Below, piece by piece: positions 1-3,000 of a DNA stretch of 64,000 nucleotides. Position numbers: made by a program. Position 1 is the stretch's first letter; each line of letters opens with the position of its first letter. Source of the DNA: Escherichia coli (GTDB taxonomy: Bacteria > Pseudomonadota > Gammaproteobacteria > Enterobacterales > Enterobacteriaceae); the NCBI RefSeq assembly GCF_001677475.2, contig NZ_CP015229.1; one strand, written 5' to 3'.

Positions 1-3000
1 CAGGATTTTCCTGATTTATTACCACCGCTTTGTTGACCGCCTTTTTTACCCGCTTCGGATGCGCGTTGCGGATCATTTTTAAAATTACCGCCGCTATGCT
101 GACCGCCTTTACGGCCTGCGTCGGATGCCTTCTCACGATCTTCGGCGAAATTTCCTGAACCACCACGATGTTCGGCCATGTTATTTCTCCCGTTGCGTTG
201 CATTGTTTCATTAATATGAGTGTTGTGTGTCGACACTCATTAAAATTAGTCGCTAATGAGAATTAGTCAAATTAAGCGTAACGAGAAGAAAGTGGGAAAA
301 TATATTATGAGGAACGTTCTTGATATATTAACAATTGTCTGAGGAATAAGTGACTTAGAGAAAATTATTGATTTTACTGGTGTTATGTTGCGGGATTAAT
401 TTGTTTGATTATATTACTGTTGGGCGGAAAAATGACGTAAGTTGACGTTCGACAGGGGTAAGCGAAACGGTAAAAAGATAAATAATAAATGAATTTAGGA
501 TTTTTCCGGCTTCGTTAAAGAAAGTTAAAATGCCGCCAGCGGAACTGGCGGCTGTGGGATTAACTGCGCGTCGCCGCTTTCATCGGTTGTACAAAAGCTT
601 TCAGTGCCGCCAGCATTTTCTCTGGCTCATTAATATGTTGCTCGATGATTTTAACAATGGCCGAACCAGAAATCGCGCCCGCAGCTCCTGCATCAATCGC
701 TGCTTTTACCTGATCCGGGGTGGAAATACCAAATCCCTGCAATGGAGGTGCAGCGTTGTACTCTTTCAGCTTCGCAACCAGATGATTGAGGGGTAACGCG
801 GCGCGGTTTTCTGCGCCGGTCACGCCCGCCCGCGACAATAAATAGGTGTAACCACGACCGTAAGAGGCTATCTGGCGCAGCAAGTCGTCATCGGCATTCG
901 GCGGGCAGATAAAGATAGGTGCAACATTATGACGCAACGCGGCCTGGCGGAAGGGTGCGGACTCTTCAACTGGCACATCGGCAACCAGCACCGAATCGAC
1001 GCCGACTTTCTCGCTCTGGGCATAAAACTCATCAATGCCTTTGTTAAACACCAGGTTGGCATACATCAGCAGGCCAATGGGAATGGTCGGGTGTTTCTGG
1101 CGAATGAGTGCCAGCATCTCAAAGCACTGCGCCGGGGTCACACCTGCCGCAAAGGCACGCAGTGTGGCGTTTTGAATTGTCGGGCCATCTGCCAGTGGGT
1201 CGGAGAAGGGGATACCTAACTCCAGCGCGTCAGCACCGGCTTCAATTAGCGTATCGATAATTTTCAATGACTGCTCAATGCCCGGATCCCCGAGCGTGAC
1301 GAAAGGAACGAATGCGCCTTCTTTGCGCTCCTTCAACTGGGCAAACAGAGATTCGTAGCGTTCCATCAGATTTCCCCTCGTGCTTTCAAAATATCGTGAA
1401 CGGTGAAGATGTCTTTATCGCCGCGACCGGAAAGGTTAACCACCAGTAGCTGCTCTTTTTCCGGGTTTTCGCGCATCATTTTCAACGCATGGGCCAGGGC
1501 GTGGGAGGATTCCAGCGCCGGGATGATCCCTTCATGCAGGCAGAGCGTTTTGAAGGCTTCAAGGGCTTCATCATCGGTAATAGACACGTAATCAGCGCGT
1601 CCAGTGCTGTTAAGATACGCGTGTTGTGGGCCGACAGACGGGAAATCCAGTCCGGCGGAGATGGAGTAAGATTCTTCAATCTGCCCGTCTTCGGTTTGCA
1701 TCATCGGCGCTTTCATACCGAAATAAATGCCCACGCGACCATGTTTTAGCGGTGCGCCGTGCTCGCCAGTTTCGATACCGTGACCACCCGGCTCCACACC
1801 AATCAGGCCGACGTTGGTTTCATTGATGAAATCAGCAAACATGCCGATGGCATTCGAACCGCCGCCAACACAGGCGATAACGGCATCCGGCAGACGACCT
1901 TCTCTTTCCAGAATCTGCGCTTTCGTTTCTTCGCCAATCATCCGCTGAAACTCACGCACAATGGTCGGATAAGGATGCGGGCCGGCTGCGGTGCCCAGCA
2001 TATAGTGCGCGGTTTCATAACTGCCGGACCAGTCGCGTAGCGCCTCGTTACAGGCATCTTTCAGCGTCGCGGAACCGCTATGTACCGGGATCACTTCCGC
2101 ACCCATTAAGCGCATACGAAAAACGTTAGGCGACTGGCGTTCAACGTCTTTGGCACCCATATAAATACGGCATTTCAGGCCGAGCAGGGCGCTGGCAAGG
2201 GCCGACGCCACGCCATGCTGACCGGCACCGGTTTCGGCGATGATTTCGGTTTTACCCATCCGCTTCGCCAGTAAAGCCTGACCGAGCACCTGGTTAGTTT
2301 TATGCGCGCCGCCGTGCAGCAAATCTTCGCGCTTCAGATACAGCGTGGTGTTCGTGCCAGCCGTAATGTTCTGGCATTTGGTCAGCGCGGTTGGACGCCC
2401 GGCATAGTTTTTCAGCAGGTCGTTGAACTGAGCCTGAAATTCAGGATCTTTTTGCGCACTGACAAAAGCTTCTTCCAGCTGGCGCAGAGCAGGCATCAGG
2501 ATTTGTGGCACGTACATGCCGCCAAACTCACCAAAATAGGGGTTAAGTAATGTTGTCATTGTTCCTTTCCTTAATATGCGCGCAGCGTCTGGAAAACCGA
2601 GGCCAAAAGACGTGCGTCTTTGATGCCCGGTTGCGACTCTACAGCAGAATTAAAATCAAGTCCGGCGCAGCCGGTTTGTGCCGCTTCCACGCAGTTATCT
2701 GCGCCTAAGCCTCCCGCCAGCAGAACGTTGCCAAGCGATTGACCGTTTAACAGTGACCAGTCGAAACGTTGCCCGCTTCCACCCTGGCCGTTGTCTAAAA
2801 CATATTTATCAATATGCTGAAGCTCGCGGGCGGGCAGGGTTTCACCGACGCTTAATGCTTTCCAGATGGCAACGTGTGCTGGCAGCGCTTCACGCAGCGT
2901 ATCGATATACAGCTGTTCTTCATTACCATGCAGTTGCACTGCCGCCAGCGATAACACCTTAGCTTTGTCCACCACATCGGCAATATCGTGATTGCGGAAC

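What the first reader, a model, noticed from the sequence alone, without database searches (positions are those of the whole stretch)
216..240. Palindromic element in the yciG upstream region
ATGAGTGT...ACACTCAT (8-bp arms) encloses a perfect 10-bp palindrome GTGTCGACAC, 37-61 nt upstream of the yciG start codon in an AT-rich region. It could be a regulator binding site or a 5'-UTR structure for this stress gene.
Basis: seen in the sequence. Interest (0 to 1): 0.2.

Follow-up and report, generated by a model that had tools for sequence, protein, structure and literature searches.

The report
Palindrome at the yciG transcription start
The palindrome is real, but it sits on the transcription start point of the already known stress-sigma (RpoS) promoter of the E. 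coli yciGFE operon, is no more than chance would give in one sequence, and shows no clear sign of being a dedicated regulatory device.

Summary
The sequence is as described: 8-bp arms at 216-223 and 233-240, and a perfect 10-bp palindrome GTGTCGACAC at 227-236. The palindrome overlaps one arm rather than lying between the arms. yciG is on the minus strand.

On its own the element is not beyond chance. A 10-bp palindrome occurs in 41% of shuffles of this intergenic region, an 8-bp inverted repeat in 12%, and both in 5%.

It lies directly after a conserved sigmaS-type promoter (TTGACT, 16 nt, C-TAATTT-TAA). A start site mapped in Salmonella transfers to window 236, so the repeat spans -4 to +21 and the palindrome +1 to +10.

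From that start only 4 bp of the stem are transcribed. The distal arm is E. coli-specific. A G>A allele in 301 genomes breaks both pairings. The antisense strand folds better than the sense strand.

The core GTGTCGACAC is conserved in Salmonella. It corresponds to a non-palindromic (T)GAACGACA block in other genera.

Those genera, and yciG paralogs, carry a covarying sense-strand leader hairpin that Rfam does not describe. E. coli and Salmonella lack its signature.

Best reading (0.42): this is the promoter start and initial transcribed region, and the dyad symmetry is incidental. Rivals are an unknown operator (0.2) and a short 5' RNA stem (0.2). Interest is low.

The parts
216..240 (.). 25-bp dyad ATGAGTGT-N9-ACACTCAT. 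It spans -4 to +21 relative to the inferred yciG start.
   Evidence: I6. Position relative to +1 and the promoter geometry.
233..240 (-). Promoter-proximal arm ATGAGTGT (sense strand), -4 to +4. Only GUGU (236-233) is transcribed if the start is G236.
216..223 (-). Distal arm ACACTCAT (sense strand), +14 to +21. E. coli-specific; not present in Salmonella.
227..236 (.). Perfect 10-bp palindrome GTGTCGACAC, +1 to +10. It is conserved in all 12 Salmonella sequences examined and is the clade-specific form of the family-wide (T)GAACGACA block.
236..236 (-). Inferred transcription start (G). It is 13 nt after the -13 C, the same offset as the mapped Salmonella start.
   Evidence: PMC5437024 Suppl. 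Fig. S7, -39..+1 ends ...CTAATTTTAATAGG. Identical -10 block. Inferred for E. coli, not measured.
240..249 (-). SigmaS-type extended -10 element CTAATTTTAA: -13 C at 249, hexamer TAATTT at 248-243, then TAA.
   Evidence: CTAnnnTTAA-type element found in all 22 orthologs.
265..270 (-). -35 hexamer TTGACT, with a 16-nt spacer to the -10 hexamer.
   Evidence: TTTGAC(T) at identical spacing in 19 of 22 orthologs and both paralogs.
192..201 (-). (GCAAC)x2 in the leader just upstream of the Shine-Dalgarno sequence. Copy number varies from 2 to 4 among E. coli strains.
187..191 (-). Shine-Dalgarno sequence GGGAG (+46 to +50).
   Evidence: Conserved (G/A)GGAGAAATAA block.
3..179 (-). yciG coding sequence (59 codons; the stop codon runs off the window start). 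KGG-repeat general stress protein.
   Evidence: RefSeq annotation. The exact protein was found on E. coli contigs with Pfam PF10685 KGG.

Best explanation
The 25-bp dyad is the start-site and initial transcribed region of the known RpoS (sigmaS)-dependent promoter of the yciGFE operon.

RNA polymerase with sigmaS uses TTGACT (270-265) and C-TAATTT-TAA (249-240). It starts at about G236, so GTGTCGACAC forms the first ten transcribed bases.

That core is constrained because it is the promoter-proximal initial transcribed sequence and 5' end of the mRNA. The same block is conserved across Enterobacteriaceae in non-palindromic form, (T)GAACGACA.

The dyad symmetry seen in E. coli is most likely incidental. 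At most it gives a marginal 4-6 bp stem at the 5' end of the mRNA.

Shown here: the sequence, the promoter conservation, the Salmonella start site, and the conservation pattern.

Inferred: the E. coli start site, and the absence of a dedicated function for the symmetry.
For: - Promoter: TTTGAC(T), 16 nt, CTAnnnTTAA in 19 of 22 yciG orthologs from about 15 genera and in 2 paralog leaders; all 22 orthologs keep the -10 element.
- Start site: the published S. Typhimurium yciG promoter (-39..+1) places +1 at the G 13 nt after the -13 C. The E. coli -10 block is identical, which puts +1 at window 236.
- RpoS dependence of yciG is reported. H-NS repression and McbR activation of yciGFE are reported.
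- Chance: palindromes of this size are common in this composition.
- RNA: from G236 only a 4-bp stem forms. Leader minimum free energy is -3.7 kcal/mol, z = +0.9.
- Conservation between E. coli and Salmonella: four conserved blocks (-35, -10, G-GTGTCGACAC, ribosome-binding region) separated by randomised segments. The distal arm lies in a randomised segment.
- In other genera the +2 to +10 block is conserved but not palindromic.
- Population: a G>A change at +3 that breaks both pairings is present in 301 E. coli genomes.
- Strand asymmetry: the antisense strand folds 4.1 kcal/mol better than the sense strand in E. coli, the opposite of the family-wide hairpins.
- The region is single-copy in E. 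coli genomes, at most 3 places in any genome. No Rfam family matches.
Against: - A perfect 10-bp palindrome kept unchanged in E. coli and all 12 Salmonella sequences, while its flanks are randomised, is what an operator would look like.
- I estimate roughly a 6% chance that a chance palindrome (41% of shuffles) falls inside one of the about 55 constrained bases of the 380-bp region. This is an inference.
- If E. coli starts at G238 instead of G236, a 6-bp stem at the very 5' end forms (-6.9 kcal/mol, local z = -2.3). A leader hairpin is clearly selected in related genera.
- The exact 61-mer is kept in 3426 of 4720 genomes, and the rarer alleles I inspected leave the palindrome intact.
- The E. 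coli start site is inferred, not measured.
Confidence: 0.42

Rival explanations
1. Operator. The perfect palindrome GTGTCGACAC at +1 to +10, or the wider dyad at -4 to +21, is the binding site of an unidentified dimeric regulator. The regulator would block or modulate initiation by sigmaS RNA polymerase in the E. coli/Salmonella clade.
For: - The symmetry is exact at the DNA level. As RNA it is nearly useless, because there is no loop.
- It is invariant in E. coli and in 12 Salmonella sequences while neighbouring leader and spacer segments are randomised.
- Its position over +1 is typical of repressors (established knowledge, e.g. lac O1).
- E. coli and Salmonella are the two taxa without the sense-strand leader hairpin signature. 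That would fit replacement of one control device by another.
- yciG responds to several inputs: RpoS, H-NS, McbR, and PhoB-dependent phosphate starvation.
Against: - No known regulator motif matches. McbR is reported as ATATAT/AT-rich, and such motifs lie upstream at 328-323 and 305-300.
- A literature search for the sequence gave nothing relevant. RcdA is never mentioned together with yciG.
- The two other TGTCGACA copies in the window are inside coding sequence.
- An allele that breaks the palindrome is present in 301 genomes.
- The homologous block is conserved without symmetry in other genera, so the constraint does not need an operator.
- 10-bp palindromes are common by chance.
Confidence: 0.2
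2. 5'-terminal RNA stem-loop. The transcribed part of the proximal arm pairs with ACACUCAU at +14 to +21 to form a short hairpin at the extreme 5' end of the yciG mRNA. This would shield the mRNA from 5'-end-dependent decay (RppH / RNase E). It would be the E. coli counterpart of the leader hairpin found in other Enterobacteriaceae.
For: - A stem-loop in the first 45 nt is more stable than shuffles in 20 of 22 orthologs (Fisher P = 1.5e-7 over 12 distinct stem sequences).
- In the alignable clade, 94% of cells pair, against 85% in shuffles (0 of 500 shuffles reach the observed value). Four pairs have changes on both sides.
- The spacing between arms varies from 8 to 13 nt, which a protein operator would not tolerate.
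- Sense RNA folds better than antisense in 17 of 24 leaders (P = 0.027).
- With a start at G238 the E. coli stem is 6 bp with no unpaired 5' nucleotides (-6.9 kcal/mol, local z = -2.3).
Against: - With the inferred start at G236 only 4 bp remain, and the leader is no more structured than shuffles (z = +0.9).
- The full 8-bp stem would need a start 3 nt after the -10 hexamer, which is not plausible.
- The distal arm is not conserved in Salmonella. The small Salmonella hairpin is weak and is further weakened in 3 of 10 S. enterica loci.
- In E. coli the antisense strand folds better than the sense strand.
- The O157-type allele disrupts the stem.
- The covariance model of the family hairpin does not recognise the E. 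coli leader.
- In the other genera the hairpin starts about 10 nt or more from the 5' end, too far for a classical 5' stabiliser (the distance requirement is established knowledge).
Confidence: 0.2
3. Transcription attenuator or terminator. The hairpin would stop transcription, either of trp read-through transcripts or prematurely in the yciG leader.
For: Some orthologous leader hairpins are followed by T-runs: 5 of 22 meet terminator criteria. trp read-through transcription enters this region from upstream (inference from the gene order).
Against: - The terminator scan finds only the trp terminator at 552-532 on this strand.
- The E. coli stem has only 3 G-C pairs among 8 and is followed by AUAUUAAUG, not a U-tract.
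- S. enterica is not called by the scan either.
- 17 of 22 leaders fail the criteria.
Confidence: 0.03

Closest known systems
SigmaS (RpoS)-dependent promoters with an extended -10 element (-13 C, TAA after the hexamer; consensus around TCTATACTTAA). Specifically the yciG promoter studied by Beraud et al. 2010 and listed in PMC5437024 Fig. S7.
   Same: TTGACT, 16 nt, C-TAATTT-TAA. The -35, -10 and +1 to +11 blocks are identical to the Salmonella promoter whose start site is mapped. RpoS dependence is reported.
   Different: Nothing about the promoter itself differs. The dyad symmetry over +1 is not part of any promoter definition and is not mentioned in the texts I could read.
5'-terminal stabilising stem-loops of mRNAs (the ompA 5' UTR type)
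   Same: A possible stem beginning at the first transcribed nucleotide of a stress-gene mRNA.
   Different: The stem is only 4-6 bp and depends on the start site. It is not more stable than shuffles from the inferred start, is not conserved in Salmonella, and shows no sense-strand signature. No half-life data exist.
Palindromic operators that overlap the start site (lac O1 type)
   Same: Exact dyad symmetry centred a few bases downstream of +1, and conserved between two genera.
   Different: It is only 10 bp. No cognate protein is known, no further copies were found, there is a natural disrupting allele, and the homologous block is asymmetric in other genera.
Leader hairpin of yciG and its paralogs in other Enterobacteriaceae
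   Same: Same promoter, same gene, and a stem-loop in the first 45 transcribed nucleotides.
   Different: - Different stem sequences.
- It starts at about +10 to +15, after a single-stranded GAACGAC block.
- It uses G-U pairs on the sense strand.
- The E. coli dyad starts at -4, has no G-U pairs, folds better as antisense, and is not found by the covariance model.

Membership tests
SigmaS-dependent promoter (yciGp) | -35 and -10 elements with sigmaS hallmarks (-13 C, TAA downstream of the hexamer) at correct spacing | tested here: met
   TTGACT (270-265), 16 nt, C249, TAATTT (248-243), TAA. The same geometry is seen across the 22 orthologs (19 with TTTGAC).
SigmaS-dependent promoter (yciGp) | Experimentally mapped start site at the predicted distance | tested here: inconclusive
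   Mapped in S. Typhimurium (PMC5437024 Fig. S7) at the predicted offset. No E. coli start-site data could be retrieved.
SigmaS-dependent promoter (yciGp) | RpoS-dependent expression | not testable with these tools
   Literature only. Salmonella yciG log2 fold change is -8.6 in the rpoS mutant. yciGFE is described as RpoS-dependent and H-NS-repressed.
5'-terminal mRNA stabiliser stem-loop | Stable stem within a few nucleotides of the 5' end of the transcript | tested here: inconclusive
   4 bp from G236 (leader z = +0.9). 6 bp from G238 (-6.9 kcal/mol, local z = -2.3).
5'-terminal mRNA stabiliser stem-loop | Pairing maintained in evolution (compensatory change or conservation of both arms) | tested here: not met
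   The distal arm is absent in Salmonella. The only common arm variant is uncompensated. Antisense folds better than sense.
5'-terminal mRNA stabiliser stem-loop | Effect on mRNA half-life | not testable with these tools
   Needs rifampicin-chase experiments.
Palindromic transcription-factor operator | Dyad symmetry conserved in sequence and position among orthologous promoters | tested here: inconclusive
   Met for E. coli and Salmonella. Not met in about 13 other genera, where the block is asymmetric.
Palindromic transcription-factor operator | Match to a known factor's motif, or recurrence at other promoters | tested here: not met
   The McbR motif is reported as ATATAT/AT-rich. No literature motif was found. 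The other TGTCGACA copies in the window are in coding sequence. A genome-wide scan was not possible.
Palindromic transcription-factor operator | Protein binding | not testable with these tools
   Needs EMSA, footprinting or ChIP.
Intrinsic terminator / attenuator | G+C-rich stem followed by a U-tract | tested here: not met
   Not called by the scan or by my reimplementation of it. The tail is AUAUUAAUG.
Any Rfam family | Covariance-model match at or near the gathering score | tested here: not met
   Nothing over 177-300 at E <= 10. Nothing on 12 orthologous leaders.
Repeated extragenic palindromes (REP/BIME, MITE-like) | Many copies per genome | tested here: not met
   Median of one place per E. 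coli genome, maximum 3.
   Only the 12 training sequences score (56-69 bits). The E. coli, Salmonella and Kosakonia-type yciG leaders give no hit at E <= 10.

The most novel reading that the evidence does not exclude
Genes for KGG-repeat stress proteins (yciG and its paralogs) in Enterobacteriaceae carry an undescribed leader module behind a shared sigmaS promoter: a 5' GAACGAC block followed by a covarying sense-strand stem-loop. In the E. coli/Salmonella lineage this RNA device was lost and replaced by a perfect DNA palindrome at +1 to +10. That palindrome would be the operator of a still unidentified repressor, so control of a horizontally mobile stress operon would have moved from the RNA level to the DNA level.
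Probability: 0.12. Interest if true: 0.45.

Novelty: already known. Interest (0 to 1): 0.15.

Why it matters
For the flagged element itself, little changes. It marks the start point of a promoter whose sigma factor, silencer (H-NS) and activator (McbR/YncC) are already described, and there is no sign that the symmetry adds a control layer.

Two by-products may be useful:
- The natural G>A (+3) allele, present in 301 genomes of which the examples shown are O157:H7, is a ready-made test of whether the dyad matters.
- The covarying, sense-strand-specific leader hairpin in other genera and in paralogs is not in Rfam. It could explain post-transcriptional differences in expression of these desiccation and stress proteins between genera. 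That includes the reported poor expression of yciGFE in E. coli K-12 compared with Salmonella (my recollection of the Beraud et al. 2010 abstract; the paper was not readable here).

Tried and rejected
- Intrinsic terminator or attenuator: rejected.
- Known RNA family: none.
- Repeated palindromic element: the region is single-copy.
- McbR/YncC site: its reported motif is ATATAT/AT-rich. Such motifs lie upstream of the -35 element, not in the dyad. The primary paper (Beraud 2010) is not held.
- The unidentified osmotic activator motif of the massively-parallel-reporter preprint: it is non-palindromic with an RcsB-like half-site TCCTAAAAT. The likely match is TCCTAAAT at 500-493, far upstream.
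- PhoB: Salmonella yciG induction is PhoB-dependent, but no Pho-box-like direct repeat lies at the dyad. This was judged by eye, not tested.
- RcdA: recalled from memory as a candidate. It is never mentioned together with yciG, so it was dropped.
- Literal sequence search in papers: nothing relevant.
- E. coli start-site data: not found in the supplements or papers I could reach.
- Homology of the E. coli dyad to the family hairpin by covariance model: no hit.
- Compensatory variation within E. coli: none seen. Rare alleles vary elsewhere.
- Small upstream ORFs: ATG at 240-238 gives a 9-codon ORF that lies partly upstream of +1. ATG at 210-208 is out of frame and has no Shine-Dalgarno sequence. 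Both were judged not meaningful from the sequence.
- Anti-Shine-Dalgarno pairing of the hairpin's 3' arm: seen in the K. oxytoca fold but not general across genera.
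Full report
**1. Observation**

- Window 216-240 reads ATGAGTGTTGTGTGTCGACACTCAT on the + strand.
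- The repeat finder lists the 8-bp arms 216-223 / 233-240 as 100% complementary with 9 nt between them (I6).
- GTGTCGACAC at 227-236 is a perfect palindrome. Its half at 232-236 shares 233-236 with the arm at 233-240, so it is not enclosed between the arms and the two pairings exclude each other.
- yciG is on the minus strand, with its ATG at 179-177. The stated distances of 37 and 61 nt are correct.
- The window's first 179 bases encode the 59-residue YciG. RefSeq annotates the same gene next to trpA in thousands of E. coli genomes, and the exact protein carries Pfam KGG.

**2. Chance**

I made 5000 dinucleotide-preserving shuffles of the 380-bp trpA-yciG intergenic region, which is 36% GC.

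- 41% contain a perfect 10-bp palindrome.
- 12% contain an 8-bp inverted repeat with a 3-20 nt loop.
- 5% contain both.
- The 64-kb window itself has 48 perfect 10-bp palindromes.

The single sequence therefore carries almost no statistical weight. Any case has to be comparative.

**3. Where the element sits**

- On the yciG sense strand the dyad is directly preceded by TTGACT (270-265), a 16-nt spacer, then C249, TAATTT (248-243) and TAA. That is the form expected of a sigmaS promoter.
- I anchored on YciF and retrieved yciG loci from about 15 genera of Enterobacteriaceae.
- 19 of the 22 orthologs carry TTTGAC(T), 16 nt, CTAnnnTTAA, and the other three have a weaker -35 element at the same spacing. 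Two paralog leaders have the same geometry.
- A published table of Salmonella sigmaS promoters gives yciG (STM14_2091) from -39 to +1 as TCAATTTGACTAATCGGTTTAACCAACTAATTTTAATAGG, with start sites taken from dRNA-seq studies (PMC5437024, Suppl. Fig. S7).
- So +1 is the G 13 nt after the -13 C. The E. coli -10 block is identical, which puts the inferred E. coli +1 at window 236.
- On that numbering the dyad covers -4 to +21, the perfect palindrome +1 to +10, the distal arm +14 to +21, the Shine-Dalgarno sequence +46 to +50, and the ATG +58.
- The E. coli start site is inferred. I could not retrieve an E. coli dataset.

**4. RNA folding**

| Assumed start | Result | Source |
|---|---|---|
| G236 | 4-bp GUGU/ACAC stem; whole leader -3.7 kcal/mol, z = +0.9 | |
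| G238 | 6-bp stem at the very 5' end; -6.9 kcal/mol, local z = -2.3 | |
| 240 or upstream | full 8-bp stem; not plausible, only 3 nt after the -10 hexamer | |

As single-stranded DNA both strands form the hairpin, and the + (antisense) strand forms the longer one.

**5. Conservation**

Within E. coli:
- The region is present in 4735 of 5426 complete genomes.
- The exact 61-mer around the dyad is in 3426 of 4720 genomes.
- The one common variant inside the dyad is a G>A change at +3 (window 234). It breaks both pairings and occurs in 301 genomes; the examples shown are O157:H7 strains.
- Other alleles vary in the promoter spacer, in the bases after the distal arm, and in a GCAAC repeat. They leave the dyad intact, so there is no compensatory evidence.

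Between E. coli and Salmonella:
- Detectable homology begins at about -38.
- It consists of four conserved blocks separated by randomised segments: AATTTGACTAAT, ACTAATTTTAAT, G-GTGTCGACAC, and the ribosome-binding region.
- The 10-bp palindrome is therefore constrained in both genera. It is invariant in 12 Salmonella sequences.
- The distal arm is not conserved. Salmonella has a small CGGTT/AACCG hairpin there instead, which is weak (z > 0) and is further weakened in 3 of 10 S. enterica loci.

In the other genera the block at +2 to +10 is conserved as (T)GAACGACA, which is not palindromic. The constraint on this block therefore does not depend on symmetry.

**6. A by-product: a family-wide leader hairpin**

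- In 20 of 22 orthologs the first 45 nt fold better than dinucleotide shuffles (z from -1.3 to -5.5).
- Fisher's combined P is 1.5e-7 over 12 different stem sequences.
- That window is among the most stable in each 300-nt upstream region.
- The paralog leaders in Kosakonia and Phytobacter have the same layout.
- In the alignable clade (12 sequences), 94.3% of cells pair, against 85% in shuffles (0 of 500 shuffles reach the observed value). Four of nine pairs show changes on both sides, and sliding the partner columns drops pairing to 50% or less.
- The distance between arms varies from 8 to 13 nt.
- Sense RNA folds better than antisense in 17 of 24 leaders (mean -2.0 kcal/mol, P = 0.027), and the stems use G-U pairs.

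This looks like a transcribed-strand RNA structure. Rfam has no family for it.

E. coli and Salmonella are the exceptions:
- They have the weakest or no excess structure.
- Their antisense strand is more stable, by 4.1 kcal/mol in E. coli and 5.7 kcal/mol in S. diarizonae.
- A covariance model of the family hairpin does not recognise them.

The function of the hairpin is unknown. It is not a general terminator, since only 5 of 22 leaders meet the criteria. It also lies too far from the 5' end to be a classical 5' stabiliser.

**7. Explanations**

- *Best (0.42).* The dyad is the start-site and initial transcribed region of the known sigmaS promoter. Its conserved core is the clade's version of a family-wide promoter-proximal and 5'-leader block, and the symmetry is incidental.
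- *Operator (0.20).* Exact DNA symmetry over +1 is conserved in two genera. Against this: no matching regulator is known, no other promoter copies were found, a natural disrupting allele exists, and the homologous blocks elsewhere are asymmetric.
- *Short 5'-terminal RNA stem (0.20).* It is plausible only if the start is at G238, and it is unsupported by conservation or strand asymmetry.
- *Attenuator (0.03).* Rejected.

**8. Comparison with what is known, and novelty**

The promoter is already described. RpoS dependence, H-NS silencing and McbR/YncC activation of yciGFE are reported. The upstream-architecture argument of Beraud et al. 2010 I know only from memory of the abstract, because the paper is not held. 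The palindrome itself is not discussed in any text I could read. It matches no described RNA family, repeat family or regulator motif. I rate the flagged element as already explained by a known promoter, with low interest. The family-wide leader hairpin is the only part that might deserve follow-up.

Noticed in passing
L010-L028 leaders (e.g. L012 2152-2202, L010 2156-2206); paralogs at L025 826-878 and L023 876-928: There is a covarying stem-loop with a sense-strand signature in the first ~45 nt of yciG and paralog mRNAs of many Enterobacteriaceae. It is preceded by a conserved GAACGAC block and follows a shared sigmaS promoter. It is not in Rfam. E. coli and Salmonella lack the signature.
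   Followed up: yes
window 192-201 (minus strand): A GCAAC pentanucleotide repeat lies just upstream of the yciG Shine-Dalgarno sequence. It has 2 copies here, 3 in strain WS1933D, and 4 in strain SX4 and one other contig. This is a small length polymorphism in the 5' UTR that changes leader length by 5 or 10 nt.
   Followed up: partly
L005 1498-1900 (E. coli MS20658) compared with window 150-560: Some E. coli strains have yciG deleted. The promoter, the dyad and the leader up to ATGAAAC are fused directly to yciF, whose annotated start is the leader ATG that corresponds to window 210-208. About 700 of 5426 genomes lack the region altogether.
   Followed up: partly
window 234 (minus strand, +3): A G>A allele present in 301 E. 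coli genomes (examples shown are O157:H7) breaks both the 8-bp arms and the 10-bp palindrome. It is a natural test case.
   Followed up: yes
window 300-305 and 323-328 (minus strand; -64 to -69 and -87 to -92): Two ATATAT motifs lie upstream of the -35 element, in the most polymorphic part of the intergenic region. A 2026 paper says K-12 McbR ChIP-seq sites include an ATATAT motif. These are more plausible McbR sites than the dyad.
   Followed up: no
window 493-500 (minus strand): TCCTAAAT resembles the RcsB-like half-site (TCCTAAAAT) of an unidentified osmotic-shock activator motif, for which the yciGFE operon was listed as a candidate target.
   Followed up: no
window 532-552 (minus strand): This is the trp operon terminator hairpin GCCGCCAG/CTGGCGGC with a T-run, 8 nt after the trpA stop codon. 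It gives a weak sub-threshold Rfam sroD match (21.9 bits against a gathering score of 50). The C-rich, G-poor stretch at about 270-300 may correspond to the Rho-dependent trp t' region; that is from memory and was not tested.
   Followed up: no
window 236-268 (minus strand): GACTAATT occurs twice, at the -35 and at the -10 element. CTCATTA in the spacer (261-255) is the inverted copy of TAATGAG at -6 to +1 (242-236). These E. coli-specific repeats are absent in Salmonella (D1, 52).
   Followed up: no
L008 2133 onward compared with the window; L010 1545-1780: E. coli and Salmonella are alignable only from about -38 of the yciG promoter onward. Only Salmonella shares the trpA-yciG linkage. In K. 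oxytoca three tRNA genes lie directly upstream of yciG, and Salmonella has a Mn-catalase gene after yciE. The operator-less promoter, leader and operon appear to move as one unit.
   Followed up: partly
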